Origin: Minisyncoccia bacterium
GTDB taxonomy: Bacteria; Patescibacteriota; Minisyncoccia; UBA6257; 2-01-FULL-56-20
DNA length: 64,000 nt
Reading direction: 5' to 3'
Assembly: GCA_049997875.1 (NCBI GenBank)
Contig: JBEKRC010000003.1
Coordinates: 115,687 to 179,686 of the forward strand
Position numbers and translations under genes: made by a program. The notes under the pieces are model-generated. The model worked only from the letters and a program-made list of their open reading frames with translations, was not told the origin of the DNA and did not search any database. Shown piece by piece: positions 10,912-23,999 of this stretch (its first letter is position 1; every line of letters begins with the position of its first letter).

Positions 10912-12834
10912 TTACTGCGGTGATGGCGTCCAATCTGCGAGCGCGGCCTGCGTGCAAGTTGTGGTGCCGCACATAGTCGTACCATCAGAGCCGGTTCCCG
11001 CAAAGACATAGTGCACAATGCCCTGCTGGTCCGCGTACGACGCGAGGTCGTTCCAGACGGTGACGGATCCGCCGGGCGTGTTGGTTTGGTCCGCGCGCAT
11101 CGTCCAGAGTTCCTGTGCGGGACGAGAGGTACCGGAAACGGAGATGGCGCAGGCGTCGGTCTTCGTGAGATCGGCGCTGCCAATGCGAGAGCATGACCCT
11201 GCCACCGTGAGTCCAACCTGGCTTCCCAAATTCAGGATTGAACTCATGGCAATGTTTACGCTTGAAGCGCCCGTGCCGGTGCCATTGTCTCCCCACCAGA
11301 CGTACAGAATGGTCTGCGACCAGTTGCTGGGGTTATCAGGATTGACGGCAATGGTGAAGTCCTGGTTCGTGGCGCTCCAATACGTTGAACATCCCCACAA
11401 CACCTGGCCGGTCCCGCTGTTGAACAACCGGCAATTGTAACTGTGATTCCCGGCAGCAACCTGCCCGGACATAAGCGGCGTGCCGGTGAGCGAATAAGGG
11501 CCTTCGGCCCAACCATGTATCAGGTTGCCGCCTTTTTCCCCCGTGCCGATCGTCCAGAGATGATCGGGGAACATAGCGACTCCGGTTACTGGATTTGTGA
11601 AGTTCGGGTCGTCATCATAGCCGTTCACCGCGAACGGGTCTTGTTGCATTACTCCGCTTGCGGAATTCAAAACCACTATCCAGCCGCCGCTGCTGTACCA
11701 GCCACTTTGCGGATCCTGCAAGCGGTAGTCGGAGTTCGTTCCGACATAGAGAGCGGAACCAAGGATGTTGATGGTTTTTGCTTCGGTGCGCACGCCGGGC
11801 CCGGAGGTAGGCAGTTGGAAATCGGCGAGCGCGAGAACATCGAGTGTGTTGCTCGCCAAGCCAACTTGCCAAACCATTGCGGAGCGGGTTGCGGTGCTGT
11901 TGGGATCCAATTGCTGCCAGCCCGCCGCGTAGGCAACCATGCCGTCGGCGCTAATCACTATTTGGTTGATTTGGCACGCCGTCGGCGAGTTGCTCCACTT
12001 ATCGAGCAAGTTGTGAGCGTTGTCGTAAAGTGCAAGCCCACAACTTGTTGCGGTAGCGTCTGCCATAATGCGCAACGCACCAAGAGCGGTAACCGCCACG
12101 GCCGTTGCCTGGTCGTTAACGTTCTTGCCATCCACTTGGGGAGTACGGTATGTGAGGTGGTTGAAGTTCACCACGAGCGTAGCCCCGTTCAGGCTGCAGC
12201 CGGTCACCCCGTTCGGGGCGTAGGTCCAACCCGAGCCACTGATGGTAGTGCTGCTTTGTGTTTCGCCAGTCACAGTGGTACCAGAAACGGTGGCCACCGC
12301 GGTGTTGCCGGAAACGAAGCTGCCGCCCGTGAAGCCCGTGGGCGCCGAGGCGGTGCTTGTTCCATTCACCGTAATGACGGCGGGCGTGAGCACCACCACA
12401 TTGCCTGTAGTAGGACAAGGACCAGCGCTTACCACGTACTTCACAGTCGCGGTCTGCGGGCTGTTGTCGGCGTTGGGATCAGCGACGCTGACCGTACAGG
12501 TCGACGTGCCGACGCTTGCCGGAGCAGCCACGGTAACCGTGAGCGCAATGCTGCCACCCACGGCGACACTACCAGAGGTCGGTGCCACATAGCACCAACT
12601 CTGGCCGGCGGCCACTGTCCAATTTAAGCTGGCCGTGCCGGTGTTCTCTACCATCAGGGTCTGCCCCGACGGTGCCGTTCCTCCCATAATTGCGTTGAAA
12701 GTGAGTGTCATGGGAGAAAGAACGATGTTAGGCTGGGGCAGCTGCCGAGTAGTCCCTCCCCCGCCGCAACTGGTCAAGGTCAGCCCTAGGAGGCTGACCA
12801 GAACCACCAATAAGCACTTCTTTTCTGTATTCAT
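10912..12834 (-). CDS. Surface lipoprotein with Ig-like (BACON/Big_2-like) domains
   Basis: LTLTSC lipobox; domains with the pattern NTGTASLNW...W...P.SG also found in the 20758 giant protein. Confidence 0.75.
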   Translation of the reverse strand: MNTEKKCLLVVLVSLLGLTLTSCGGGGTTRQLPQPNIVLSPMTLTFNAIMGGTAPSGQTLMVENTGTASLNWTVAAGQSWCYVAPTSGSVAVGGSIALTVTVAAPASVGTSTCTVSVADPNADNSPQTATVKYVVSAGPCPTTGNVVVLTPAVITVNGTSTASAPTGFTGGSFVSGNTAVATVSGTTVTGETQSSTTISGSGWTYAPNGVTGCSLNGATLVVNFNHLTYRTPQVDGKNVNDQATAVAVTALGALRIMADATATSCGLALYDNAHNLLDKWSNSPTACQINQIVISADGMVAYAAGWQQLDPNSTATRSAMVWQVGLASNTLDVLALADFQLPTSGPGVRTEAKTINILGSALYVGTNSDYRLQDPQSGWYSSGGWIVVLNSASGVMQQDPFAVNGYDDDPNFTNPVTGVAMFPDHLWTIGTGEKGGNLIHGWAEGPYSLTGTPLMSGQVAAGNHSYNCRLFNSGTGQVLWGCSTYWSATNQDFTIAVNPDNPSNWSQTILYVWWGDNGTGTGASSVNIAMSSILNLGSQVGLTVAGSCSRIGSADLTKTDACAISVSGTSRPAQELWTMRADQTNTPGGSVTVWNDLASYADQQGIVHYVFAGTGSDGTTMCGTTTCTQAALADWTPSPQ

Positions 12835-13040
12835 CTTACCCTCCTGTTGGTCAACCTCCTACGGCTGACCTCATATTCAGCTTACAGCCCGGGTTCCCTC
12901 AATCAGCGAAGGCTACCCGTTAGCTACCTATACTATACCAGTTTCCGCGTAAAAACGCAAGGTTTGGACTGGACCGAACTCAAGCGATCGTTCAAACGAT
13001 TGGAAAAGCCGAATTTATGGTACATTAACCATACAAACCC

Positions 13041-13490
13041 ATGGACTGCATCTTCTGCAAAATAGCAAAGGGAGAGGCGCCCGCCCACACGATATGGGAA
13101 GACGAAAAACATTTGGCATTCCTCTCCATTTTCCCCAATACCGAAGGCTTCTCGGTGGTGGCGACGAAGGAACACTTTCCGAGCTATCCCTTTGATCTCC
13201 CCGACGAGGTACTGGTCGGGCTGGTCTTGGCGGCAAAGAAAGTCGCGAAGCTCTTGGACGAGAAGCTCAACGACGTCGGGCGGACCGGCATGATTTTTGA
13301 AGGGTTCGGCGTTGACCATACGCACGCGAAACTTTTTCCCATGCATGGCACGAAAACGCCGGAATGGAAACCGCGTCAATCAAACGTTGATAAATATTTT
13401 GAGACGTACGAGGGCTATATTTCGTCGCACGATTACAAGCGTGCCGATGATGAAAAGTTGGCGCGGCTCGCAGAGAAAATAAGGGACTGA
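13041..13490 (+). CDS. HIT family hydrolase
   Basis: GVDHTHAKLFP histidine triad. Confidence 0.9.
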   Translation: MDCIFCKIAKGEAPAHTIWEDEKHLAFLSIFPNTEGFSVVATKEHFPSYPFDLPDEVLVGLVLAAKKVAKLLDEKLNDVGRTGMIFEGFGVDHTHAKLFPMHGTKTPEWKPRQSNVDKYFETYEGYISSHDYKRADDEKLARLAEKIRD

Positions 13491-13644
13491 TTTTGCTAAA
13501 TAGGCCCGGGTGCCGCAGGCGACCAGATCTATTCTTTTCGGCCCCTTTTAAAAGCCGCGGATTAGAAAATTGTGCTAAAATCATTTCAATAATCAAGCAC
13601 TCCCATCCGAGTACATTCTGCACAAGCAGCTTCAAAGAAGTCCC

Positions 13645-14586
13645 ATGAAAAAGAACTTAGAATATTTTAAGTCCCTTAGAAAGGCGAATTGCCATTTGCA
13701 CATAACCGGTTCTCTCAGACCACGAGACCTAAGACGTCTGGCAAAGATCGCTCATCGCGATATAGCCCAATACGAACCGCTTGAGGAACATATGAAATTT
13801 TATGATCCAGTAATTTGGTCAGCAGCAAAAGAGATAACCTCCACCGCGGAGGGCCTTTCCGAGGCAATTAAAATTATATTGACGCGCGAGGCAGAAGATA
13901 ATGTTGCGTACGTTGAGTTTACAATAAACCCAGCAGGCATGGTGCGTCGCGGCATGACAAGCCAAGATATCGTCGTATCAATTAAAAATGGTTTTGCACA
14001 TGGAGATACTCTCGGAATCACGAGCAAAGTAAAATTCGGCGTAAACCGAAAAGATGGCCCTGATTCAGTTGCCATTGTAAAAGACGTATTTAACGCGACG
14101 CCCGAGAGCTGGAGAGTGTGTATCGACCTTAATGGTGACGAAAGAATGTTCCAGACATCAGATTTTATTAGGCCTTTCCTGCAATTGGCTTCCGAAAACA
14201 TCCCCGTAAGCATCCATGCCGGTGAATACATGGGTCTGTGCAACTCATTAAAAGACGCGATTACAATGAATCCTCGGAGAATTGCTCACGCTATCGCAGT
14301 CAACGAAGACGAAAGCATAATAAATTCTTTTATTGAGAACAACATAATTTTAGAAGCGTCGCTGATGTCAAATTTAAAAACCGGCGCCATAAGTGACATA
14401 ACGAAACATCCGATTAAAAAGTTTATCAACTCCAACGTTCCGATCGTTTTGGGCAGCGATAATCCAGCTTTTTTCGGAACAACCGTTAGCTCAGAGCTAG
14501 TATGTCTCGCTAACGCAGGTGTAGGTATAGATGAAATAGAAGAATTAAACCAGCGCGTATTTAAGCTGGTCGATATGACGAAATGA
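13645..14586 (+). CDS. Adenosine/AMP deaminase-family metallohydrolase
   Basis: CHLHITGS (HxHLxGS), SIHAGE and GSDNP motifs typical of the adenosine deaminase family. Confidence 0.75.
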   Translation: MKKNLEYFKSLRKANCHLHITGSLRPRDLRRLAKIAHRDIAQYEPLEEHMKFYDPVIWSAAKEITSTAEGLSEAIKIILTREAEDNVAYVEFTINPAGMVRRGMTSQDIVVSIKNGFAHGDTLGITSKVKFGVNRKDGPDSVAIVKDVFNATPESWRVCIDLNGDERMFQTSDFIRPFLQLASENIPVSIHAGEYMGLCNSLKDAITMNPRRIAHAIAVNEDESIINSFIENNIILEASLMSNLKTGAISDITKHPIKKFINSNVPIVLGSDNPAFFGTTVSSELVCLANAGVGIDEIEELNQRVFKLVDMTK

Positions 14587-15695
14587 TCGCTCCCGCACCA
14601 TTGGCTGAAATAGAGAAAGCCCTAAACGCCAAGGTGATTAATATTGAGAGGGTAACCAAAATCTACGGCTCCGATGCAGATAGTTTTCTGATCAAGGTGG
14701 TTTCTGCCAAAAACAAAATTACTATGTATTTTCTTAAATTTGAAGAAAAGAATCGCACTAACCAAGAAATAGCGGGGATTCGCTTCATTGAAAAATTTCT
14801 ACCTACCCCAAAGATTATTGTTACCTCGCGCGGAAAATCACTTTCTCCAGGATGGATTCTATTCGAACACGTTCAGGGCAAACTTATGGCCGAAAAATAT
14901 CTCAAGATTAAAGATGAAAATGAATTTGAATCGTTTTGCAAGCTTGAACAACGAAAGGAAAAACTCCTTGGGGTCCTTTACTCTCAACCAACAATCAAAA
15001 TGAGTTATAACGACTATATCAAATTGCCGGCAAACCAATTGTTTCGTGAAAGACTATGTGGGAAGAGATATGGGGAGTTCTTCGGAAATAAACAAGGCAA
15101 TGTATCGCAGTATTTTGATCGTCGCATCTCAATCAATAAATGTAACTTCCCCTCCACGGTAAATCAGATTTTTGAATCAATTAGAAAAAAATATTCTTCG
15201 CGAAAGCATGAGCTAGTTACCGCCCTCATGGGTCAGGGCGATGCTCACCACGGGAACATTATCGTGAACAAAGGGATAGAATTCATTGATAACGAGTACG
15301 CGGGGTTTATGCCACCCTTTATGGAATTGGCCAAGCCTTACTATAACGATTTTATTGGCACGTTATTTTTCCACCATCACCAAACCCTAGAGCAACATTT
15401 TCAGATTCGTAGCTTCAAGGATACGGGCACAAAACTTCTATTCGAAATCAAATCTCCTCAAAAAATCACCAGGCCTATCAAAATAACTCAGATCAAATTA
15501 TTTGAAAGGAAAAAGTGGGTGAATGAGGCGACGGATGATTTCTTGTCTCTAAACGACTACTTAGTTCTTTCCCATGCCCTGACGAAAAATCCAAATACTT
15601 ATCCGCCGAAAACCAAATTGTTGTTTTTGACTTTCGTCGCAATATTGGCTCAATTTGACCCACTGGATCCGGAATCCCTATACCGCCTCTTCTAA
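14583..15695 (+). CDS. Phosphotransferase of the APH/choline-kinase fold
   Basis: GDAHHGNIIV catalytic loop and a downstream IDNEYAG; 4-nt overlap with the upstream deaminase. Confidence 0.7.
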   Translation: MIAPAPLAEIEKALNAKVINIERVTKIYGSDADSFLIKVVSAKNKITMYFLKFEEKNRTNQEIAGIRFIEKFLPTPKIIVTSRGKSLSPGWILFEHVQGKLMAEKYLKIKDENEFESFCKLEQRKEKLLGVLYSQPTIKMSYNDYIKLPANQLFRERLCGKRYGEFFGNKQGNVSQYFDRRISINKCNFPSTVNQIFESIRKKYSSRKHELVTALMGQGDAHHGNIIVNKGIEFIDNEYAGFMPPFMELAKPYYNDFIGTLFFHHHQTLEQHFQIRSFKDTGTKLLFEIKSPQKITRPIKITQIKLFERKKWVNEATDDFLSLNDYLVLSHALTKNPNTYPPKTKLLFLTFVAILAQFDPLDPESLYRLF

Positions 15696-16975
15696 GTAGA
15701 GTGTCTTCGGTTGCGACTAAATCTCTCAACCTTCCTAAATACGTATGCGCCGAACTTCTCAATGAAACGATCAGCTTGCATCACTAGCTCAGAGATGTCT
15801 TTTTTATCGTTGAGATTGTGCCAGTTCTGGATCGTTTCCTGAGCAAGTTTTAGAAATGTAAAGTTGTATGAGGCGAAAGTTTTTCTCGCTTGATCCAGAA
15901 GGGGGGTTTCCTCGGAGTACTCGCCGAAATATTGGATAGCCAACTTAACGATCGTAAGAGACGCCCTAATTTCTCCTTTAAGTATTTCTTTCAGTCCTAT
16001 CGCCTCATCAGCAGTAAAACGCCCCGCAGCAGTGAGATCTCTCCTGTTCTTTCTAAAGAACATCCCGATGTTTGCCAAGCTGTACTCTCTAGCTTCCTCT
16101 GCGGTAGGAGTATAGAACTTGCTGAATCGTCCCTTTTTTACATATACAAGCCTGTCAGGATGGCGCTTCAGCTCCACCAATGCCTGAAGCGTCTTGCCAT
16201 CCAACGATACAATAGGAAGATTGGGATGTACGACTTCCTTTGTAGTGACCACATTGATGCCATAGTGAATCTTGGTTTTTCTCTCTAGCTTCCTTGTCAT
16301 TCCAGCAATATTGTTCTTTGTCTTGATATTCATTCTCTCTACCACTAACAACAGATCTACATCGCTCCATCCATCGCGATATACTTTTCTAGCAGCGCTT
16401 CCGGTCATGACGATAGCCGCCAAGTTTGATGCAAGAGTTCCTTTCAATGCTTTAACCGCACTTGTAATAACCCTGTCCAATCTTGGACCCCCGCAGGGGT
16501 GTCTGTCGAGCAGAAAGAGGCGCCGTGCCTCGACCAGATTATCCCTATCAAAGGTAATCTTTTTCAGAGCATCTTGAAACGCAAGCCACCTCGCCGCGAC
16601 GAACTCCTCGGCCCTAAGGGGAAAAATTTTCTTTTTATTAGTTGAACAAAACACGTACAGATGAACACTCTTTTTGTGAGAAAGGATATCTCCACTAAGA
16701 GTAAAGGTATAGTTACTAATCCCTACCTTGCCTACAAGCTGCGGATTCACATTTAATGAAAGTTCTTCTTTAACTTCCCTGACTGCGGCAGCTTCCGGAC
16801 TCTCTCTCCTTTTAAGGTGTCCCTTCGGAATCACGTATTCCCCTCTCAAATTTTTAAGCAACGCCACATATAATCGATGGCCTTGTGGTCTCTGAAAAAA
16901 CAAAAAACCTCCGGCTGATTCATGCATCATGCTGTTCCCCTTCTTTTTGATTTTGTCATCTCTACTGAAATTCAC
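15692..16975 (-). CDS. NUDIX hydrolase fused to a Pol-beta-type nucleotidyltransferase
   Basis: N-terminal Nudix box GHLKRRESPEAAAVREVKEELSL; central GSAARKVYRDGWSDVDLLLVV nucleotidyltransferase motif; helical C-terminus. Confidence 0.8.
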   Translation of the reverse strand: MNFSRDDKIKKKGNSMMHESAGGFLFFQRPQGHRLYVALLKNLRGEYVIPKGHLKRRESPEAAAVREVKEELSLNVNPQLVGKVGISNYTFTLSGDILSHKKSVHLYVFCSTNKKKIFPLRAEEFVAARWLAFQDALKKITFDRDNLVEARRLFLLDRHPCGGPRLDRVITSAVKALKGTLASNLAAIVMTGSAARKVYRDGWSDVDLLLVVERMNIKTKNNIAGMTRKLERKTKIHYGINVVTTKEVVHPNLPIVSLDGKTLQALVELKRHPDRLVYVKKGRFSKFYTPTAEEAREYSLANIGMFFRKNRRDLTAAGRFTADEAIGLKEILKGEIRASLTIVKLAIQYFGEYSEETPLLDQARKTFASYNFTFLKLAQETIQNWHNLNDKKDISELVMQADRFIEKFGAYVFRKVERFSRNRRHST

Positions 16976-17065
16976 AGTTCTATATTACTAAAACCCCTTT
17001 AATTATAAAAATCGGAGGCCCTGAGAAAGCAAATTTCGAACAGGGCCTCGTCTCACTCCCGGTGA

Positions 17066-18055
17066 TCAGCAACGGTAGCGTGCGATCATCGCATCAACGG
17101 CGGCATAAAGATCTTCCAGAGTGCCAGAGTTGTCGATGACTTCTCCGGCAATCTCCTTAAGGGCTGGAATGCCTGATTTTGCTTTGATCTCATCGCGCGG
17201 CAGGAGAATCAACTTCGCCTGTCCGAAGTCCGAAAGCCCTTCCCGAATCATCTGGCGCTGAAGGCGTATCTCAAGTGGAATTTCAACGTAGACGATGCAG
17301 AAGTGGTCAGCCAGCCGCTGCCTCAGATAGAGTCCCAGTCCTCCTCCATAGAGGCTCTCAATGGACGCCATAGACGTTTCGAGGGTCTCCATCTCTTGGA
17401 GAAGTTCATCGAGAAAGACATCCCATAGGGCATATGGATCACTTGCTTCGCCCTTGTTCACCCATCCCCTGAGGTCCTCATTGGAATCTGGCGCTAGTCT
17501 TTCCTTAACCTTTCCAAAGAGGCGTACGATCTTGAGACGCCTAACGCCCCTCGAATCAAGGTACTTGCCCACGGTGCTCTTGCCACACTCGCTCATACCC
17601 GTGAGTGCAAATACCATCTTGCCTTGAAAGTTCTTCTGGTTTTTCATCCTCTCCTCCCTAAAGAGATCATCCATCAAACAGAGTTCGCGTTCGGCTGAGC
17701 GCAAAGAATCCGGCACGTGAGCAACATTCTTGATCCAATTCTCGGAATACTTCCCCCGCATGCCGTTAGGATATCGCCCAATAATATCCCATTTCACTTT
17801 GCTGACGGCTCCGATTCCTTCCACCCTCAACAGCAGGACGGTTCCCGAAGAAACCCAATTGACTACCTCTGTGAAATAAATTTCCTCTCGCTCCTCTCCA
17901 TACAACTTCTCTACTAGGTGCTGGGGAAGCTGCATCCGAACGCTGTCGGTCACTCTCAGGCCGTTCAGGCTTAGGTTAAGGAGGATTTCCCCAACCAAGC
18001 CCTTAGCGATGCCGTCCGGTTTTACTATAACAAGCGTCTGCTCAAAAAGCATCAT
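17066..18055 (-). CDS. Nucleoside diphosphate kinase-like domain fused to a P-loop (NMP/dephospho-CoA kinase-like) domain
   Basis: N-terminus LVIVKPDG...GEIL is NDK-like. C-terminus has the Walker A GMSECGKSTVGKYL. AAGGAGGA RBS before the ATG at 18055. Confidence 0.7.
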   Translation of the reverse strand: MMLFEQTLVIVKPDGIAKGLVGEILLNLSLNGLRVTDSVRMQLPQHLVEKLYGEEREEIYFTEVVNWVSSGTVLLLRVEGIGAVSKVKWDIIGRYPNGMRGKYSENWIKNVAHVPDSLRSAERELCLMDDLFREERMKNQKNFQGKMVFALTGMSECGKSTVGKYLDSRGVRRLKIVRLFGKVKERLAPDSNEDLRGWVNKGEASDPYALWDVFLDELLQEMETLETSMASIESLYGGGLGLYLRQRLADHFCIVYVEIPLEIRLQRQMIREGLSDFGQAKLILLPRDEIKAKSGIPALKEIAGEVIDNSGTLEDLYAAVDAMIARYRC

Positions 18056-18139
18056 GGGGATCCTCCTTCTAGCCAATATTCAGATGTTTATGAACTATAA
18101 ATCTATAAAAGCACGAAGACGGTGTCCTGTCAAACCATT

Positions 18140-18943
18140 TTATTTCTTTGCTAATACCACCCAAATTGAATAACGGAAGAATTTGAATGGGTCACATCCC
18201 TTTATGTTGCCGACAACTTGAGGAATTGAGAAGAAATTGGCTGCCACCTTATTGTCGTCAGGGATCATGCTCTTTAGCTCGAAGATTGTCGGCAGATGAG
18301 CATAGCCGTCGGGAGCCCCTAAAACTTTATTGTTTTTATACACAATATCGCCCGGCAAGAGGTTTGAATATTCTTTTCCAAACAACTTACAACCCACCAT
18401 CATTAGCCGTCGCCAGATGTCCCGCAGGATATTCTTTAGTGGCACAAGGAGACCGCGGCCAACGTATAGTTTATTGAAACTTTCCACAAAAACAATACCG
18501 TTCGGTTTTATGACTCTTAACATTTCAGCTATTGCCTTTTTCCTCTTTGCAAACGTTGCTACGGCGTTAATGGAAAATCTCGGGCAAAACACATAATCAA
18601 AAAATTCGTCCGGAAATGGGATGGCAGTCATGTCCCCCTCAATAAACTTCGCATCCCGGGCACCCTCATTAAATGCTTTTTTCTTTGCCTCCTGTACGGC
18701 CTGAGGCGTTATATCTATCCCTGTCACATTAAATCCGTGCAGCGCGGCGTTCACTGAAAACCTTCCCGATCCGCAACCGAGATCAAGGATCTTTGCGCCG
18801 CGAGGGAGATCGTCTAATATTTTCCTCTCAACCTTACGAAGAGGTGCTGCCGCATAGTACGAGGTTTCACCCGCATAATGGGCAATATTTAAATTTTTTA
18901 TTCTTTTGTAATATTTTTCTTCGTCAATCGCTTGGCGGGTCAT
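18140..18943 (-). CDS. Class I SAM-dependent methyltransferase
   Basis: ILDLGCGSGRFS motif I. Confidence 0.85.
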   Translation of the reverse strand: MTRQAIDEEKYYKRIKNLNIAHYAGETSYYAAAPLRKVERKILDDLPRGAKILDLGCGSGRFSVNAALHGFNVTGIDITPQAVQEAKKKAFNEGARDAKFIEGDMTAIPFPDEFFDYVFCPRFSINAVATFAKRKKAIAEMLRVIKPNGIVFVESFNKLYVGRGLLVPLKNILRDIWRRLMMVGCKLFGKEYSNLLPGDIVYKNNKVLGAPDGYAHLPTIFELKSMIPDDNKVAANFFSIPQVVGNIKGCDPFKFFRYSIWVVLAKK

Positions 18944-19087
18944 TAAGCGTAACTCTAAACAAATCTTTCTAAAACATCAACGTTAGCAGCCACACCAAAA
19001 TCTCATACAATAAGTTAAATATATCGCCGTCGCGCTCAATGTTAGCTACGTCCGCCGTTTACGCGCTTATTCTGCTAAACTGAAACC

Positions 19088-19633
19088 ATGAAGCTTTTAA
19101 TCCTTTATGGGCCTCCGGCAACGGGAAAATTGACGGTGGCGAAAGAATTGTCGGCGCTGACCGGCTATCCCCTTTTCCACAATCATCTCGTTGCCGATCT
19201 TGCATCATCCATCTTCCCTCTTGGCACCAAAGAATATGCCGCATTGTCGGAAGCAGTCCGCCTTTCAACCATCAGGGCGGCGGCGAGAAGTAGCGTACCG
19301 GGAATGATTGTCACGTTCGCCTACGGCGTTGAGACCCTCGGCGGCAAAGACGATGATGCCCTTCTTAAAAGAATGAGCCGTATCGTTAAGAGCGCGGGCG
19401 GAAAAACTTATTTCGTAAAATTTTCCGCTTCTGATGCGGCGCTCCGAAAACGCATCACGGCCACCGCAAGGAAAACATTCAAAAAGTTGAGAAGTTACAG
19501 GGCCCTACAAAAGCTGCGAGTCAGATACCGCATGGACGCGTCCGTACCGTTCGCGAAAAGCATTGTGATCAACACCACAAGCATTACCCCGAAGTCAGCG
19601 GCCCGGATGATTATGAGGGCAGTTCGGTTGTAA
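19088..19633 (+). CDS. P-loop ATPase/kinase-like protein
   Basis: GPPATGKLTVAKEL Walker A. Confidence 0.7.
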   Translation: MKLLILYGPPATGKLTVAKELSALTGYPLFHNHLVADLASSIFPLGTKEYAALSEAVRLSTIRAAARSSVPGMIVTFAYGVETLGGKDDDALLKRMSRIVKSAGGKTYFVKFSASDAALRKRITATARKTFKKLRSYRALQKLRVRYRMDASVPFAKSIVINTTSITPKSAARMIMRAVRL

Positions 19634-19652
19634 GGCCTCGCTATACAGACAT

Positions 19653-20153
19653 ATGTCGAGTGCCGGAGAAAAACCCAAGAGCAAAGCGGTCGGTTGCTTC
19701 CTTGAACACGAGGGCCAGTTTTTGATATTGCAGCGGCGCCCCGAAGAACATCAAGGCGGAAAGTGGGGCTTGCCGGCCGGCGGGGTTGAGCAAGGAGAAA
19801 CCGAAAAAGAGGCCGTCATCCGGGAGGTGCGCGAGGAAACGGGATTTTTAATTCCGCCGGCGAAACTGGAATTCCTGCGGGAAATCGTATTTGAGTTTCC
19901 CGAAAAAATAACCGACTTTTTCGCCTATCGCGTAAATCTTGATTCAAAAATTGCTGTCGCGCTTGATTCACACCATCAGGCCTACGCGTGGGTTACCGGA
20001 AAGGAGTGTTATGCGCGGGATGATCTCATCAAAGGCGTTCACGGCACGCTGGAGAAAACGAGGTACGCGCCAAACGTCGCTCATCACCGAGATCGCAAAA
20101 AACATTCCAATTTCCCGCGGGATGAGATTAAAAAATCATTAAAGAACCTTTGA
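19653..20153 (+). CDS. NUDIX hydrolase
   Basis: GGVEQGETEKEAVIREVREETG Nudix box. Confidence 0.85.
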   Translation: MSSAGEKPKSKAVGCFLEHEGQFLILQRRPEEHQGGKWGLPAGGVEQGETEKEAVIREVREETGFLIPPAKLEFLREIVFEFPEKITDFFAYRVNLDSKIAVALDSHHQAYAWVTGKECYARDDLIKGVHGTLEKTRYAPNVAHHRDRKKHSNFPRDEIKKSLKNL

Positions 20154-20156
20154 CAA

Positions 20157-20450
20157 TTGGGGGCGCTCCCTTACGATGACATTATGACGATTGACCAAAT
20201 GGCGGCCGCGTGCCAACTTGAGTTCGCCGCGATACACGAGAAGATTGACAAGCTTGCCGCGGAATCTTCGTCCATCCGCGAGGAGATGAAGAAATATGCC
20301 ACCAAAGAGGACCTTGCGAAGGGGCTCCTCTCCGTGGAAACCACCCTCCTCCGCCGCTTTGACGATTTTGAAACGCGGATGTTTGACTGGATGCGCGGCA
20401 TTGATCGCCGCGTGACCGCATTGGAACTTCAATGCGGAAAACACGTGTAG
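20157..20450 (+). CDS. Small coiled-coil protein, possible paralog of the 8711 gene
   Basis: Shared upstream motif ATTAAAGAACCTTTGAC; YATKEDL in one versus MATKEEL in the other. Confidence 0.5.
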   Translation: MGALPYDDIMTIDQMAAACQLEFAAIHEKIDKLAAESSSIREEMKKYATKEDLAKGLLSVETTLLRRFDDFETRMFDWMRGIDRRVTALELQCGKHV

Positions 20451-20757
20451 GCTTATCGCGATCATCGGCGAAAACAATGAGCATGTAATTGAGTACGCTC
20501 TTGAGGGTTTTGGAGTACTTGCAGCAATCGGGAATACCCCACCGGAGACCGAACGGGGGCACAAGGACGGTTGAACGCGGCCGGATTTATTGACCGGCCA
20601 TTTCATGCCTGCGGAAAAGGAAGAGATACGAACCGGACACAGGCGGTGGCGCGTATCGCAAGGTGGCCGCCCCGTTACTGTCGGGCGATGACGCAATCGG
20701 CATTGTCCCATCCGCCTTGTTTTATGCACACCTCTGCGGGCCGTTTACAATGCTATA

Positions 20758-23700
20758 ATGTACTCAATGGATAAAAGGCATTTTGTTCTCATTGCCGCCG
20801 CTCTCGTAGTGCTAGGCTTCGTTTTGATTTCTCCTCGTTCTGCCTTGACTCAAAGTTCTCAAGGGGATGGCAGCATTTCTCTTTCCAACGTCGTGAGCGG
20901 CACTTATACGATCGTGGTCACGGGGCAGGACCCCTCCGGCAGCTCCGTCGGCACGACAACGCTAACGGTGACCGTGACCACGCCGCCCTCCTGCCCCACC
21001 TCAAGCAATACCGTCACCCTCACGCCTTCCACGATCACGGTCGGCGGGACGAGCATCGCCTCGGCTCCCGCGGGCTTCACGGGCGGCAGCTTCTCTTCTA
21101 ATAACTCCTCGATAGCCAGCTCCCTCCAGGTGAACCCCGCCCCCACGGCCCACATCGTCCTTGCCCCCGCAAGCTTTTCCTTCTCTGGCGTCTCGGGCGG
21201 GGCGACGCCCGCGGGCAAGACCATGGCTATAGAGAACACCGGCACGGCGACCCTGACCTCCTGGACGGCGACCATCGCATCCTCCACAAGCTGGTGCCAC
21301 GTGAGCCCGGCATCGGGGAACAACGTTGCGGCGGGCGGTTCCCAGAACGTCACGGTGTCGGTGGATGCGCCCACGAACACCGGCGCCTTCTCCTGCACTA
21401 TCACCGTCGCCGGCAATGCCGACAACAGCCCGCAGAATGCGACCTACACGGTGACGGCGCCCAGCATCTCTCTTTCCCCCCAAAGCTTCTCCTTCTCGGG
21501 CGTCTCGGGCGGGGCGACGCCTGCCGGCCAGACCATGGCCATTACGAACACCGGCACGGCGACCCTGAACTGGACGGCGTCAGGGGTGCCCGGCAAGACG
21601 GGCACCTGGTGCCACATAAGCGATGCCTCGGGCACCGTTCCGGTGGGCAAAAACTGGCAGGAGAGCGAGCTCGTCACGGTGACGGTGGACGCGCCAACGA
21701 ACATAGGGACCTTCACCGACTGCGGCATCCGCATCACCGACTCCCATGCCGACAACAGCCCGCAGGATGCCACGATCACCTACACGGTGACGGCACCCCT
21801 CCCTCCCTCCTGTCCCACCTCAAGCAACGCCGTCACCCTCACGCCTGCGACCATCACGGTCGGCGGGACGAGCATCGCCTCCGCTCCCACGAGCTGGACG
21901 GGCGGCAGCTTCCTTTCTAGTAGCTCCTCGATAGCCAGCGTTTCCGGCACCACCGTGACCGGCGTCGCCGCGGGCAGCGCCACAATCAGCGGATCGGGAT
22001 GGAAGGCCCCCAACGGGGCGACGGGCTGCAGCTTGAGCGGGGCCGCCCTCACGGTGACGGGGCAGCCCACGCTTGTCATCTCCCCGCCATCGACGTCCAC
22101 CACGGTGGGAGGCACGGCCTCGTTCACGGCCTACTATGATCCTGACGGTTCCGGGCCACAGCCACAGCAGAACGTGACGGCGAGCGCAAGTTGGTCCTCC
22201 TCTTCTTCCACGATCGCGAGCTCGCAGGGAAGCGGCCAGTTCAAGGGGGTGAAATCGGGCACGGCAACCGTGAAGGCTATCTACGGAGGCCTTACGGCGA
22301 CAGCCATCCTGAATGTCAATGCCGTGGGCACGCCGGACTTCTCCCTCACGGTTTCCCCCCCGAGCCAGTCCATCATGCAGGGCACAAACGGCACCTACAT
22401 CGTGACGGCGTCCAGCTCGGGTGGGTTCAGCGGTTCCATCAATCTTTCCGCCACCAATCTTCCGTCAGGCGTGACCGCGACATTCTCCCCCGCCAGCATC
22501 ACGCCGGGCAATTCCTCCAATCTCACCCTGACCGTGGGCAGCGGCGTGCTCCCGGGCGCGTATACCTTCTACGTCAAGGGCACGTCGGGGTCGCTGATCC
22601 ACAGCTACCCGGTGGGGCTCACGGTCACCGCCGCCCCCACAGCCCATATCGTCCTTGTCCCCACAAGCTTCTCCTTCTCGGGCGTCTCGGGCGGGGCGAC
22701 GCCTGCCGGCCAGACCATGGCCATCAAGAACACCGGCACGGCGACCCTGAACTGGACGGCGTCAACCATATATGGCTGGGACCAGTTGAACCCAACCTCG
22801 GGGAACGTTACGGCGGGCGGTTCAAAGAACGTCGCGGTGACGGTGAGCCCGCCTTCGAACGTCGGGATCTTCCCCGATACTATCACCGTCAGCGGCAATG
22901 CCGACAACAGCCCGCAGCAAGCCTCCGTGACGTACACAGTGACAAGTTCCTCGCCGCCCACCTCGCCCTCGCCCACTCTTTCCCTATCCATCGCTCCGGA
23001 GGAGATCGCGCTCGGCCAATCAGCGTCCCTCGTCTGGTCAACGGCGAATGCGACTGCCTGCACCGCCTCCGGCAACGACCCGACTGAATGGTCGGGGTCG
23101 CAAGCGATAGGACAGAACCAGCAGGCTGTCATGTCGCCTTCCCCAGTGGGGACCTATACCTACACCCTCACCTGCACCGGCCCTGGCGGGAGTACGGCGC
23201 AGTCGGCGACCCTCGTGGTAGACCCCGGTTACGTCGGCGGCCCCACGCCATTTGGTTGCACATGTACGGAAGTTTCAGACCTTAGCGAAGTCACCTGTCC
23301 TCCCAATTGTCCCTATCCGTCGCTCGCCGCCTGCCAAGCGGCATGTTCAGCCTCCAATCCTCCCGGTCCCTCCAATCGGCTTACTATCTCCCCCGCAAGT
23401 CTATATCTTTCTGTTGGCGGCCAGAGCGGCAAATTCACGTTGACGTACAATGGCATCGACGTAACTACCGCCGCCACCTGGACCGCCGGCCAACACACTA
23501 CGGTATCAAATGGTGTGGTAACGGCAGTCTCATACGCCGTGTGGGACCCTATCATGGCGAACTACCAAGGAAACTGGACGGAGGGTATTGTTTACATATA
23601 TCAGTCGCCATCCGGTCCGTCTGGGCCGTCCGGCCCGTCCGGGCCCACATGCCCGGGTGGAAATGGCTGCCCGCCTCCGCCCTCCTGCACCTTCACCGCC

Positions 23701-23988
23701 AGTCCTTCGGAGATCATCGCGCCGCAATCAGCAAACCTCATCTATAATTGCAGCCATGTGACCACCTGCAGCATCACGGGATCCGACGGTTCAACCTACC
23801 CTGTTTCGGTGAGTCCCTCCGACCGTGCGAACGGCACCCGGGCGATCGCGCCAAGCGCGGACACCTCCTACACCTTGAGTTGCTACGGCGAGGAGGGATC
23901 TCCGTACAGCAACGCGGCCTACGATTCGGTCACGACCATTCAAATCAAAGTCAACAACAATCCCCATCTGCACGAGGTCAATCCGTAA
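20758..23988 (+). CDS. Giant secreted surface protein (1076 aa) with repeated Ig-like (Big_2/BACON-like) domains and a PSGPSGPSGPSGP linker
   Basis: Signal peptide; repeated modules of about 100 aa; Cys-rich C-terminal domains. Confidence 0.8.
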   Translation: MYSMDKRHFVLIAAALVVLGFVLISPRSALTQSSQGDGSISLSNVVSGTYTIVVTGQDPSGSSVGTTTLTVTVTTPPSCPTSSNTVTLTPSTITVGGTSIASAPAGFTGGSFSSNNSSIASSLQVNPAPTAHIVLAPASFSFSGVSGGATPAGKTMAIENTGTATLTSWTATIASSTSWCHVSPASGNNVAAGGSQNVTVSVDAPTNTGAFSCTITVAGNADNSPQNATYTVTAPSISLSPQSFSFSGVSGGATPAGQTMAITNTGTATLNWTASGVPGKTGTWCHISDASGTVPVGKNWQESELVTVTVDAPTNIGTFTDCGIRITDSHADNSPQDATITYTVTAPLPPSCPTSSNAVTLTPATITVGGTSIASAPTSWTGGSFLSSSSSIASVSGTTVTGVAAGSATISGSGWKAPNGATGCSLSGAALTVTGQPTLVISPPSTSTTVGGTASFTAYYDPDGSGPQPQQNVTASASWSSSSSTIASSQGSGQFKGVKSGTATVKAIYGGLTATAILNVNAVGTPDFSLTVSPPSQSIMQGTNGTYIVTASSSGGFSGSINLSATNLPSGVTATFSPASITPGNSSNLTLTVGSGVLPGAYTFYVKGTSGSLIHSYPVGLTVTAAPTAHIVLVPTSFSFSGVSGGATPAGQTMAIKNTGTATLNWTASTIYGWDQLNPTSGNVTAGGSKNVAVTVSPPSNVGIFPDTITVSGNADNSPQQASVTYTVTSSSPPTSPSPTLSLSIAPEEIALGQSASLVWSTANATACTASGNDPTEWSGSQAIGQNQQAVMSPSPVGTYTYTLTCTGPGGSTAQSATLVVDPGYVGGPTPFGCTCTEVSDLSEVTCPPNCPYPSLAACQAACSASNPPGPSNRLTISPASLYLSVGGQSGKFTLTYNGIDVTTAATWTAGQHTTVSNGVVTAVSYAVWDPIMANYQGNWTEGIVYIYQSPSGPSGPSGPSGPTCPGGNGCPPPPSCTFTASPSEIIAPQSANLIYNCSHVTTCSITGSDGSTYPVSVSPSDRANGTRAIAPSADTSYTLSCYGEEGSPYSNAAYDSVTTIQIKVNNNPHLHEVNP

Positions 23989-23999
23989 ACGGTGCGTTA

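What the first reader, a model, noticed from the sequence alone, without database searches (positions are those of the whole stretch)
13041..20153. Dense cluster of nucleotide-handling enzymes
Within about 7 kb sit a HIT hydrolase, an adenosine-deaminase-family enzyme, an APH-fold kinase, the NUDIX-nucleotidyltransferase fusion, an NDK-like domain fused to a P-loop NMP/dephospho-CoA-kinase-like domain, a SAM methyltransferase, a P-loop protein and a second NUDIX hydrolase. The deaminase and the APH-fold kinase overlap by 4 nt.

For an organism that probably depends on salvage, this could be a nucleoside scavenging and sanitation island. Alternatively, parts of it could form a nucleotide-modification or defence module. 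The NDK-kinase fusion and the deaminase-kinase coupling are unusual architectures.
Basis: inference. Interest (0 to 1): 0.55.

Follow-up and report, generated by a model that had tools for sequence, protein, structure and literature searches.

The report
Conserved kinase–nucleotidyltransferase cassette in CPR bacteria
Five of the eight flagged genes are this ultra-small (CPR) bacterium's copy of a rare, undescribed gene cassette shared by many such bacteria; it most likely phosphorylates and nucleotide-activates a small molecule while recycling its own nucleotides, and the other three genes are just neighbours.

Summary
All eight genes, their domain assignments and the 4-nt ATGA overlap between the deaminase and the kinase are real.

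The region is not one island. Loci from 28 kinase lineages (36-69% identity) in several CPR groups show a recurrent cassette:
- APH-fold kinase (g3)
- Pol-beta/ANT-like nucleotidyltransferase with an Ap4A-hydrolase-like Nudix domain (g4)
- UPF0200-like P-loop kinase fused to, or adjacent to, an NDK-like domain (g5)
- often a SAM methyltransferase (g6)
- sometimes an ADAL-like deaminase (g2)

The HIT gene (g1), the small P-loop gene (g7) and the second Nudix (g8) are never found with the cassette and have host-like GC.

In relatives the Nudix domain is fused to a GT2 or GT4 glycosyltransferase instead, and GT4 is once fused to the nucleotidyltransferase. A dehydroquinate-synthase-like gene is often in the same operon.

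Best reading (inferred): a cassette that phosphorylates, nucleotide-activates and transfers a sugar- or cyclitol-like molecule, with built-in NMP→NDP→NTP regeneration. The window's copy lacks the transferase and the cyclase.

Housekeeping salvage, a known defence system and antibiotic resistance are all poorly supported. No description of the cassette was found. Substrate and product are unknown.

The parts
13645..14586 (+). g2: adenosine-deaminase-family protein (313 aa), ADAL/MAPDA-like. Accessory member of the cassette, translationally coupled to g3 by an ATGA overlap.
   Evidence: Pfam A_deaminase 3e-39. Best solved relative is the adenosine deaminase-like protein 8qch (3.4e-18), followed by bacterial adenosine deaminases (6n9m, 6n91, 3rys, 3ou8) and then the Adenosine/AMP deaminase family protein 6ijm (5.5e-14). 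Found next to the cassette in 4 of 28 lineages, only in those with the NUDIX-NT fusion (Fisher p=0.0055). GC 0.43 against flanks of 0.56 or more.
14583..15695 (+). g3: divergent APH/choline-kinase-fold small-molecule kinase (370 aa). Substrate unknown.
15692..16975 (-). g4: fusion of an Ap4A-hydrolase-like Nudix domain (N-terminal) with a Pol-beta/ANT-like nucleotidyltransferase plus helical domain (427 aa from the GTG start).
   Evidence: Pfam NUDIX plus NTP_transf_2; motifs intact. AF2 model pLDDT 87.7. The Nudix domain is closest to the Aquifex Ap4A hydrolase (TM 0.84), CT771, Ndx1 and MutT1/Rv2985. The nucleotidyltransferase profile matches minimal nucleotidyltransferases, AadA ANT(3'')(9) over both domains (E 0.013) and kanamycin nucleotidyltransferase. 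The GTG start at 16975 is supported by the conserved N-terminal extension in homologues and by the 427-aa NCBI call.
17066..18055 (-). g5: NDK domain fused to a UPF0200-like P-loop (NMP/dephospho-CoA-kinase-like) kinase (329 aa from the ATG; a TTG at 18076 would give 336 aa).
   Evidence: Pfam NDK 7.9e-23. PDB: NDKs at 2e-20; P-loop profile to 3h0k/3lw7 at 1.6e-16. Fusion family of 233 clusters. Where NDK is not fused, a separate divergent NDK-like protein lies adjacent (hhalign probability 94.9%, E 4.8e-8).
18140..18943 (-). g6: class I SAM-dependent methyltransferase of the small-molecule type (267 aa). Frequent member of the cassette.
   Evidence: Pfam Methyltransf_31/11/25 down to 3.7e-24. 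Only the SAM-binding core matches solved structures. Orthologues at 48-62% identity lie in the cassette in 11 of 28 kinase lineages and in all 5 kinase-less cassettes sampled.
13041..13490 (+). g1: divergent HIT-family protein (149 aa). A neighbour; membership in the cassette is not supported.
   Evidence: Pfam HIT 7.4e-7 over residues 11-78 only. No homologue near the kinase in any of the other 27 lineages. GC 0.52, host-like.
19088..19633 (+). g7: small P-loop protein (181 aa). A neighbour in a separate, divergently transcribed unit; membership not supported.
   Evidence: Weak AAA_33/AAA_18 hits only. No NCBIfam family. No informative PDB relative. Absent from all relatives' loci. GC 0.52.
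19653..20153 (+). g8: MutT-like Nudix hydrolase (166 aa). A neighbour; membership not supported.
   Evidence: Pfam NUDIX 3e-20. NCBIfam mutT 56.7 bits, below the 97.9 cut-off. No orthologue in relatives' loci; the phmmer hits there fall on the cassette's own Nudix domain. GC 0.51. Other small Nudix genes do sit near the cassette in some relatives (L007, L020, L024, L040), so a loose link is not excluded.

Best explanation
Genes g3-g6, with g2 as an add-on, are this Minisyncoccia (CPR) bacterium's copy of a rare cassette that appears to be horizontally mobile and is shared among CPR lineages.

Proposed mechanism:
1. The APH-fold kinase (g3) phosphorylates a hydroxyl of a small molecule X. X is probably sugar-, ribose- or cyclitol-like.
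2. The Pol-beta/ANT-like nucleotidyltransferase (g4, C-terminal part) couples X or X-phosphate to a nucleotide, giving NMP-X or NDP-X.
3. The attached Nudix domain binds or hydrolyses that pyrophosphate-linked product, for turnover or proofreading.
4. The P-loop kinase fused to NDK (g5) converts released NMP to NDP and then NTP. An organism without de novo nucleotide synthesis can therefore run the pathway self-sufficiently.
5. The methyltransferase (g6) tailors X.

In relatives a GT2 or GT4 glycosyltransferase, fused to the Nudix or nucleotidyltransferase domain, transfers X to an acceptor. A dehydroquinate-synthase-like cyclase probably makes X de novo. The window's version lacks both. It carries instead an ADAL-like deaminase coupled to the kinase, so its end product may differ.

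Shown: gene content, intact catalytic motifs, folds, conserved linkage, alternative fusions.
Inferred: every chemical step and the identity of X.
For: Linkage. In 28 kinase lineages dereplicated at 90% identity, the following lie within 6 kb of the kinase: nucleotidyltransferase in 25, Nudix in 24, P-loop kinase in 21, an NDK-type domain in 19, methyltransferase in 11 and deaminase in 4. Most absences are on truncated contigs. Loci come from Shapirobacteria, Gribaldobacteria, Azambacteria, Paceibacterota and Minisyncoccia. Minimal five-domain cores sit among unrelated housekeeping genes.

Alternative fusions tie three partners to one metabolite. NUDIX-NT, NUDIX-GT2, GT4-NUDIX and GT4-NT are all seen, and the fusion types are interleaved on the kinase tree.

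A wider set of cassettes lacks the kinase family. Their order is MT, NDK-P-loop, NUDIX-GT2, NT, DHQS-like, with overlapping genes, in 4 of 5 sampled loci. The DHQS-like proteins are 32-47% identical between loci. DHQS-like genes also occur in the kinase-type loci L025 and L028.

Nucleotide regeneration. The NDK active-site His is kept and the P-loop domain matches adenylate-kinase-related UPF0200 structures. Separate NDK-like proteins stand in for the fused NDK.

Other points:
- The nucleotidyltransferase resembles small-molecule O-nucleotidyltransferases.
- The Nudix domain belongs to the Ap4A / NDP-X hydrolase type.
- Accessory status: tiny family and GC below flanks in 19 of 19 loci.
Against: - To my knowledge (not tested here), Pol-beta-fold nucleotidyltransferases are not known to make NDP-sugars. 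Known salvage pathways use GlmU/RmlA-type enzymes.
- The window's own cassette has no glycosyltransferase or cyclase anywhere in 64 kb.
- The add-ons found with the glycosyltransferase-less form are purine-nucleotide enzymes: the deaminase (4 of 8 such lineages) and Ham1/ITPase (L017/L018). That fits a nucleotide substrate better. The other Ham1 copy, however, lies in the GT4-NUDIX locus L024.
- The P-loop kinase could phosphorylate X itself rather than an NMP. This is suggested by my recollection that shikimate kinase has a similar fold.
- ORF calling in the relatives' loci used my own longest-ORF heuristic.
Confidence: 0.42

Rival explanations
1. Non-canonical nucleotide cascade. The three kinases act in series on a nucleoside: g3 takes nucleoside to NMP, the P-loop domain NMP to NDP, and NDK NDP to NTP. 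The deaminase and methyltransferase define the base (for example inosine or a methylated purine). The Pol-beta nucleotidyltransferase uses the resulting NTP, for RNA tailing or to make a signal or conjugate. The Nudix domain, and Ham1 in relatives, destroy it.
For: - Fusion of an NMP-kinase-like domain to NDK suggests consecutive steps.
- The minimal conserved core is three kinases plus a nucleotidyltransferase plus Nudix.
- The deaminase is closest to the adenosine deaminase-like protein 8qch, which I recall acts on NMPs, and it is coupled to the kinase by ATGA.
- Ham1/ITPase lies near the cassette in L017/L018 and L024.
- The deaminase is restricted to the glycosyltransferase-less form carried by the window.
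- There is a precedent for deaminase plus nucleotide kinases producing dITP as a messenger (bioRxiv 10.1101/2024.12.20.629578).
Against: - I know of no APH-fold nucleoside kinase, and none appears among the structural neighbours.
- The deaminase is present in only 4 of 28 lineages and Ham1 in 2.
- This reading does not explain the recurrent glycosyltransferase fusions or the operonic DHQS-like genes.
- The nucleotidyltransferase resembles small-molecule ANTs, not RNA-tailing enzymes or CD-NTases. The CdnD match is a short stretch at E 0.005.
Confidence: 0.22
2. Housekeeping nucleoside scavenging and nucleotide-pool sanitation island. Independent salvage and house-cleaning enzymes happen to be collected in one place.
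For: - CPR bacteria depend on salvage (general knowledge).
- ADA, NDK, NMP-kinase-like, HIT and two Nudix proteins are all typical salvage or sanitation families.
- A PfkB kinase and pentose-phosphate genes lie elsewhere in the window.
Against: - No protein reaches its NCBIfam equivalog cut-off: ADA 143.7 against 216.55, NDK 82.3 against 155, MutT 56.7 against 97.9.
- The kinase and nucleotidyltransferase families are very rare rather than universal in CPR.
- The core travels as a unit with atypical GC.
- Salvage has no role for an ANT-like nucleotidyltransferase, a methyltransferase, or the glycosyltransferases and cyclase seen in relatives.
Confidence: 0.1
3. Antibiotic-type modification or self-resistance cassette. 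The APH-like kinase and the ANT-like nucleotidyltransferase inactivate, or keep inactive, an aminoglycoside- or aminocyclitol-like compound. That compound may be one made by the DHQS-like and glycosyltransferase versions of the cassette.
For: - Fold-level similarity to APH and ANT enzymes.
- CPR genomes are reported to carry many divergent AR-like aph and aad genes (PMC8651080).
- DHQS-like cyclases, GT4 and methyltransferases recall aminocyclitol pathways (own knowledge).
Against: - Identity to any resistance enzyme is 17% or less.
- NCBIfam APH(3') scores 21 bits against a cut-off of 205, and ANT(9) 16.7 against 340.
- Resistance genes are not normally locked in a conserved operon with NDK, an NMP-kinase-like domain and Nudix.
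- No aminotransferase, which I would expect in an aminocyclitol pathway, was seen in the loci.
Confidence: 0.08
4. Anti-phage defence or nucleotide-signalling system, for example Kongming-like or nucleotide-depletion based.
For: - PADLOC domain-level hits: the ADA domain of CARF-ADA (5.9e-24), the Nudix candidate PDC-S07 (6.3e-18 for g8, 2.2e-5 for g4), PDC-S09 for the nucleotidyltransferase (3.3e-6) and the mad2 methyltransferase domain.
- GT4 domains in relatives also match Pfam 'GT4-conflict'.
- Accessory distribution and atypical GC.
Against: - No complete known system and no recognisable effector (nuclease, SIR2, TIR, pore) in the window or in relatives.
- No neighbouring defence genes.
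- No phage homologues of the kinase.
- The cassette is embedded among housekeeping genes.
- The GT4 domains score far better against ordinary GT4 families.
Confidence: 0.07

Closest known systems
Salvage-type 'kinase then nucleotidylyltransferase (then transferase)' pathways: AmgK-MurU (MurNAc), LicA-LicC-LicD (phosphocholine), NahK-GlmU. Recalled from own knowledge of these pathways.
   Same: An APH/choline-kinase-fold small-molecule kinase encoded next to a nucleotidyltransferase. In relatives a glycosyltransferase follows. The logic is phosphorylate, NDP-activate, transfer. The kinase carries the ID-x-EY motif that I recall from the choline-kinase/LicA/ThiK subgroup, and three family members have precomputed Choline_kinase Pfam hits.
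   Different: The nucleotidyltransferase is Pol-beta/ANT-type, not GlmU/RmlA-type. The cassette adds a Nudix domain, an NMP-kinase-like domain fused to NDK, and a methyltransferase. The window's copy has no transferase. The kinase does not reach any curated family cut-off.
C7-cyclitol / pseudosugar pathways (validamycin and acarbose type: DHQS-like cyclase, cyclitol kinase, nucleotidyltransferase, glycosyltransferase). Recalled from own knowledge.
   Same: Relatives' cassettes combine an AroB-like protein that scores below the aroB cut-off (275 and 244 bits against 305) with kinases, a nucleotidyltransferase, a glycosyltransferase and a methyltransferase in one operon.
   Different: The kinase and nucleotidyltransferase belong to different families. 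No aminotransferase or other tailoring genes were seen. The DHQS-like gene is absent from the window. The hosts are CPR bacteria with roughly 1-Mb genomes, not actinomycetes.
Aminoglycoside-modifying enzymes APH(3')/APH(2'') and ANT(3'')(9)/AadA, ANT(4')/KNTase
   Same: Same folds and catalytic motifs. Both act on hydroxyls of small molecules.
   Different: 10-17% identity. Far below the curated cut-offs. Fixed in a conserved multi-gene cassette with nucleotide-regenerating enzymes.
Kongming anti-phage system (KomA adenosine deaminase; KomB Ham1-like; KomC SIR2; dITP made with phage nucleotide kinases). Sources: bioRxiv 10.1101/2024.12.20.629578 and PMC13454610.
   Same: A deaminase-family protein encoded with nucleotide kinases could in principle produce ITP or dITP. 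Ham1 genes lie near the cassette in two relatives.
   Different: No SIR2 or other effector. No Ham1 in the window. The deaminase occurs in only 4 of 28 lineages. Here the kinases are encoded by the host cassette itself.
UPF0200 / SSO1041 'adenylate-kinase-related' archaeal P-loop kinases, and canonical NDK
   Same: The C-terminal domain of g5 aligns over its full length to 3h0k/3lw7 (1.6e-16). The N-terminal domain is a bona fide NDK with the catalytic His.
   Different: The two are fused in one polypeptide. NDK's usual HGSD is HVPD. In sister cassettes the NDK part is replaced by a very divergent stand-alone NDK-like protein. To my knowledge the function of UPF0200 itself is unknown, and my one paper search on it found nothing.

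Membership tests
Housekeeping nucleotide salvage / sanitation orthologues (Add, Ndk, MutT, HinT) | Each protein reaches the curated equivalog score of its family | tested here: not met
   NCBIfam scores against cut-offs: aden_deam 143.7 vs 216.55; NDK 82.3 vs 155; mutT 56.7 vs 97.9; HinT 33.4 vs 130.
Housekeeping nucleotide salvage / sanitation orthologues (Add, Ndk, MutT, HinT) | Broad, near-universal distribution in the lineage, with no fixed linkage to one another | tested here: not met
   Kinase family: 70 clusters among 5.8 billion proteins and 41 representatives at E<=1e-30 among 1.84 billion. The core genes are linked in 19-25 of 28 lineages.
Known anti-phage defence systems (PADLOC-DB 2.0) | A full set of a system's signature proteins, including an effector | tested here: not met
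   Only domain-level hits: the ADA part of CARF-ADA, PDC-S07 Nudix, PDC-S09 nucleotidyltransferase and the mad2 methyltransferase domain. No system is complete and no effector is present.
Kongming system | KomA deaminase together with a KomB (Ham1-like) / KomC (SIR2) effector pair | tested here: not met
   An ADA-family gene is present. A Ham1 query found nothing in the 64-kb window. No SIR2 hit among the proteins I scanned, which were the eight region genes and ten other window ORFs; the rest of the window was not scanned for SIR2.
APH / choline-kinase-like phosphotransferase superfamily (g3) | Bilobal kinase fold with the beta3 Lys, the HxDxxxxN catalytic loop and the metal-binding D-x-E/D | tested here: met
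Aminoglycoside resistance APH(3') or thiamine kinase (g3) | Equivalog-level similarity | tested here: not met
   APH_3p 21 bits vs 205; ThiK 20.4 vs 299. Foldseek TM only 0.40-0.48.
Pol-beta-superfamily nucleotidyltransferase, ANT-like (g4 C-terminal part) | hG[GS]-x9-13-DhD motif followed by a helical C-terminal domain | tested here: met
   G177-S178 ... W-S-D190-I-D192 are invariant. Pfam NTP_transf_2 hits all 17 family members. AadA aligns across both domains at E 0.013. ANT(9) scores 16.7 vs 340, so g4 is not a resistance orthologue.
Nudix hydrolase, Ap4A-hydrolase-like (g4 N-terminal part) | Nudix box Gx5Ex7REUxEExGU and the Nudix fold | tested here: met
   Box G-H-LKRR-E-SPEAAAV-REVKEE-LS-L. 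Foldseek TM 0.84 to the Aquifex Ap4A hydrolase. Substrate not testable here.
Nucleoside diphosphate kinase (g5 N-terminal part) | NDK fold with the phospho-histidine and the Lys/Tyr/Arg/Asn nucleotide-binding residues | tested here: met
   Pfam 81.3 bits vs 27. KPD, Y, F, R-G, N-x-x-H are retained in NVAHVPDS. The equivalog cut-off is not reached (82.3 vs 155).
Kinase -> NDP-X -> glycosyltransferase activation pathway | A transferase that consumes the activated product is encoded with the kinase and the nucleotidyltransferase | tested here: not met
   tblastn queries with GT2 and GT4 proteins taken from relatives found nothing in the 64-kb window. The feature is met in relatives: NUDIX-GT2, GT4-NUDIX and GT4-NT fusions. 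The claim for the window is therefore 'works like', not 'is a complete member'.
Sugar-phosphate-cyclase (DHQS-like) based cyclitol pathway | A DHQS-like cyclase in the cluster | tested here: not met
   Absent from the window. Present in L025, L028, L043, L045, L046 and L047. Whether these are true AroB enzymes or other cyclases is inconclusive, because they score below the aroB cut-off.

The most novel reading that the evidence does not exclude
CPR episymbionts carry a lineage-specific, horizontally exchanged biosynthetic cassette built on an unprecedented enzyme set: an APH-fold kinase, an ANT-type Pol-beta nucleotidyltransferase, a Nudix domain and an NMP-kinase-NDK fusion. It would make a nucleotide-linked cyclitol- or sugar-like metabolite, such as a pseudosugar glycoside, a surface decoration or a toxin. 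Alternatively, in the deaminase-bearing form found here, it would make a non-canonical (inosine-type or methylated) nucleotide. Either would be a new pathway type, and a rare case of dedicated small-molecule chemistry in bacteria with genomes of about 1 Mb.
Probability: 0.35. Interest if true: 0.75.

Novelty: new variant of a known kind. Interest (0 to 1): 0.6.

Why it matters
CPR/Patescibacteria have minimal genomes and are thought to carry almost no dedicated small-molecule chemistry. Here is a five-to-eight-gene cassette that:
- is conserved at 36-69% identity across several CPR classes;
- has its own nucleotide-regeneration module;
- shows unusual domain fusions (NDK with a UPF0200-type kinase; Nudix with a Pol-beta nucleotidyltransferase; Nudix with GT2 or GT4).

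This suggests a product important enough to keep and to exchange between lineages. It could be a surface or host-interaction molecule, a pseudosugar-type natural product, or a non-canonical nucleotide.

The cassette would also give the first functional context for two orphan families (the UPF0200-type kinases and this kinase clade). It would show a Pol-beta/ANT-type enzyme in a biosynthetic rather than a resistance role. The proteins are small and have confident structure models, so the question can be tested directly in vitro.

Tried and rejected
- Sequence search of the kinase profile against PDB gave only E about 0.6 to APH(3'). Structure prediction was needed.
- The nearest outgroup proteins from the 1.84-billion-protein search (650-940 aa, with C-terminal kinase domains) had no informative Pfam domains.
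- Foldseek of the whole g4 model returned only Nudix hits. The nucleotidyltransferase domain had to be assessed with a sequence profile.
- PHROGs and the phage tblastn gave no evidence of phage origin.
- Rfam found no riboswitch or other RNA in 12700-20800 that could have named a ligand.
- Promoter and terminator scans were at chance level. The three transcription units are therefore inferred from strand and spacing only.
- Five literature searches found no description of the cassette.
- The ~320-aa protein that replaces the kinase in DHQS-type cassettes (alignment A7) has no Pfam or NCBIfam match. My impression of an HPr-kinase-like P-loop is unverified.
- The ~220-aa N-terminal domain of the 383-aa P-loop proteins in L007 and L040 is also unassigned.
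- Phosphocholine (LicA / phosphoethanolamine methyltransferase-like), thiamine and CoA salvage schemes were considered. None was adopted, because none explains the deaminase, the cyclase and the NDK together, and the methyltransferase matches are confined to the SAM-binding core.
- Pairwise-identity correlations between the kinase and its partners are only moderate (Spearman 0.41-0.67). They are compatible with co-inheritance plus some shuffling.

Full report
**Observation**

The region 13041-20153 holds eight ORFs exactly as described. Pfam confirms:
- HIT (g1)
- A_deaminase (g2, 3e-39)
- NUDIX plus NTP_transf_2 (g4)
- NDK plus a P-loop domain (g5)
- a class I SAM methyltransferase (g6)
- a small P-loop protein (g7)
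- a second NUDIX (g8)

The g2/g3 overlap is ATGA at 14583-14586. g3 and g4 converge with a 4-nt overlap.

Strand and spacing suggest three transcription units: g2-g3 rightwards (g1 upstream), g6-g5-g4 leftwards, and g7-g8-(97-aa ORF) rightwards. Promoter and terminator scans are at chance level, and no Rfam element is present.

**Organism**

Identical proteins occur on contigs from peatland metagenomes. NCBI labels the record 'Minisyncoccia bacterium', a CPR/Patescibacteria lineage. The window otherwise carries ribosomal proteins and EF-G, RecG, a PfkB kinase, a transketolase/epimerase fusion and very large surface proteins.

**Is it a module?**

I aligned the kinase family and used the alignment to fetch related loci: 5 from species-representative genomes and 28 from metagenomes. 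Three more came by exact look-up.

I compared these loci with the window's proteins by tblastn, by clustering and by profile HMMs. After dereplication at 90% kinase identity there are 28 lineages. Their kinases are 36-69% identical to the window's. Within 6 kb of the kinase:

| Partner | Lineages (of 28) |
|---|---|
| Pol-beta nucleotidyltransferase | 25 |
| the cassette's Nudix domain | 24 |
| UPF0200-like P-loop kinase | 21 |
| an NDK-type domain | 19 |
| the methyltransferase | 11 |
| the deaminase | 4 |
| HIT (g1) | 1 (this strain only) |
| small P-loop protein (g7) | 1 (this strain only) |
| an orthologue of g8 | none seen in relatives |

Most absences are on truncated contigs.

Named hosts include Shapirobacteria, Gribaldobacteria, Azambacteria and Paceibacterota. 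In L041 and L042 a minimal core sits among unrelated housekeeping genes. The core is P-loop kinase, kinase, NDK-like protein and nucleotidyltransferase, with a Nudix gene in L042.

It stands for g1, g7 and g8.

**Composition**

The window's g2, g3, g4 and g6 have GC 0.40-0.44. g1, g5, g7 and g8 have 0.51-0.52, and the flanks 0.56-0.63. The cassette is lower in GC than its flanks in all 19 loci with at least 5 kb of flank (sign test 4e-6).

The kinase family is very small: 70 clusters among 5.8 billion proteins, and 41 representatives at E<=1e-30 among 1.84 billion. Together these suggest an accessory, probably horizontally exchanged cassette.

**Anatomy of the components**

- The Nudix domain of g4 has an intact Nudix box. 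It is structurally closest to Ap4A/Ap6A hydrolases and to MutT1/Rv2985 (TM 0.84 to Aquifex 3i7u).
- The C-terminal part of g4 has the GS...WSDIDLL nucleotidyltransferase motif and a helical domain. Its profile matches minimal nucleotidyltransferases. Across both domains it matches the streptomycin adenylyltransferase AadA (E 0.013), and it also matches kanamycin nucleotidyltransferase.
- g5 is a true NDK with the catalytic His, as NVAHVPDS. It is fused to a domain that aligns end to end with the archaeal UPF0200/SSO1041 'adenylate-kinase-related' structures (1.6e-16).
- The NDK-P-loop fusion is itself a recurrent CPR protein, with 233 clusters.
- Where the P-loop kinase lacks NDK, a very divergent stand-alone NDK-like protein lies next to it. 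Profile-profile probability is 94.9% (E 4.8e-8), with the His motif aligned.
- g6 matches solved methyltransferases only over the SAM-binding core.
- g2 is closest to the adenosine deaminase-like protein 8qch, ahead of bacterial adenosine deaminases and the Adenosine/AMP deaminase family protein 6ijm. I recall 8qch and 6ijm as N6-methyl-AMP deaminases. g2 carries HxH, HAGE and a SDNP variant of the usual SDDP.

**What relatives add**

The Nudix domain is not always fused to the nucleotidyltransferase.
- In many lineages the nucleotidyltransferase stands alone (~257 aa) and the Nudix domain is fused to a GT2 glycosyltransferase (~470 aa).
- In others Nudix is fused to a GT4 (~525 aa).
- In L025 a GT4 is fused directly to the nucleotidyltransferase.

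On a kinase NJ tree these architectures are interleaved, so fusion and fission happened repeatedly.

Starting from the NDK-P-loop family, I sampled five cassettes that lack the g3 kinase family. Four of them read MT, NDK-P-loop, NUDIX-GT2, NT, DHQS-like, with overlapping genes. An unknown ~320-aa protein lies convergent at the position the kinase occupies elsewhere. The DHQS-like proteins are mutually 32-47% identical. They score as AroB relatives but below the aroB cut-off. They also occur in the kinase-type loci L025 and L028.

Other occasional neighbours are Ham1/ITPase (L017/L018, L024), an inositol-monophosphatase-family gene (L007) and extra GT4s. The deaminase is found only with the NUDIX-NT, glycosyltransferase-less architecture (4 of 8 lineages against 0 of 17; p=0.0055). 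None of GT2, GT4, DHQS-like or Ham1 exists in the 64-kb window.

**Interpretation**

The alternative fusions among nucleotidyltransferase, Nudix and glycosyltransferase argue that these three handle one metabolite. The simplest candidate is a nucleoside-diphosphate-linked compound (NDP-X) that is:
- made by the nucleotidyltransferase,
- used by the glycosyltransferase,
- bound or cleaved by the Nudix domain.

A kinase (g3, or another enzyme at the same position) would supply X-phosphate. The DHQS-like enzyme would supply X de novo in some lineages. The NMP-kinase-like NDK pair would regenerate the NTP donor from the NMP or NDP released. That is a sensible addition in bacteria that cannot make nucleotides.

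This is inference.

The main rival is a three-kinase cascade that turns a nucleoside into a non-canonical NTP. It is favoured by the window's own add-on, an ADAL-like deaminase coupled to the kinase, and by Ham1 in relatives. It recalls the dITP chemistry of Kongming (bioRxiv 10.1101/2024.12.20.629578). It does not explain the glycosyltransferase and cyclase links.

The other rivals are weaker:
- Housekeeping salvage is contradicted by rarity, by sub-threshold family scores and by the unit-like inheritance.
- A known defence system is not supported.
- An aminoglycoside-type resistance role rests on fold resemblance only. PMC8651080 documents such AR-like calls in CPR genomes.

**Novelty and verdict**

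All the enzyme superfamilies are known. The cassette, its fusions and its restriction to CPR appear to be undescribed: five literature searches found nothing. I class it as a new variant of a known kind, namely the kinase plus nucleotidyltransferase activation pathways.

- Confidence that g3-g6 (±g2) form a functional unit: about 0.9.
- Confidence in the proposed chemistry: about 0.4.
- The substrate and the product are unknown.

Noticed in passing
window 10912-12834 (-), 20758-23988 (+), 23748-26879 (+): The cassette is bracketed by very large, Thr/Ser/Gly-rich, high-GC (0.59-0.63) predicted surface proteins. Domains seen are BACON_2 and three Laminin_G_3 repeats. The proteins share repeated 'GGATPAGQTMAI.NTGTATL.W' modules. 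They may be adhesins of an episymbiont.
   Followed up: partly
L045 12262-13239 (-), L046 11308-12267 (-), L047 9662-10594 (-), L043 11175-12131 (-): A conserved ~320-aa protein family (alignment A7; invariant LLHGS...CF.DDG.STAKTL...DEFCF) sits convergent to the DHQS-type cassettes, at the position the APH-fold kinase occupies elsewhere. It has no Pfam or NCBIfam match. It could be an analogous kinase, but that is unverified.
   Followed up: partly
L007 7766-8917 (-), L040 12495-13646 (-): In two relatives the P-loop kinase carries a ~220-aa N-terminal domain in place of NDK. In L007 this domain has a second Walker-A-like motif (INGSDGIGKT). No family match was found.
   Followed up: partly
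L035 12276-12785 (+) and L040 2544-3086 (+): SET-domain proteins (a lysine-methyltransferase fold, unusual in bacteria) lie a few kb from the kinase in two CPR relatives.
   Followed up: no
window 42098-43657 (-) and 39222-40244 (-): A single 519-aa ORF combines ribulose-phosphate 3-epimerase with the N-terminal half of transketolase. A PfkB-family sugar or nucleoside kinase lies nearby. These are probably the real pentose and nucleoside salvage genes of this organism.
   Followed up: no
window 13041-13490 (+): In the HIT protein the histidine triad reads V-D-H-T-H-A-K, so the first His is missing. Pfam aligns only the N-terminal two thirds. It is a divergent HIT of unclear activity.
   Followed up: no
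window 20157-20450 (+): A 97-aa ORF (g9) directly follows g8, with a 3-nt gap. It gives only weak, coiled-coil-like Pfam matches. It is conserved only in the same strain's contigs.
   Followed up: partly
L009 4608-5390 and L034 9944-10726: In the Gribaldobacteria genome the kinase is truncated (260 aa) and the methyltransferase gives only fragmentary hits. This looks like a decaying copy of the cassette.
   Followed up: no
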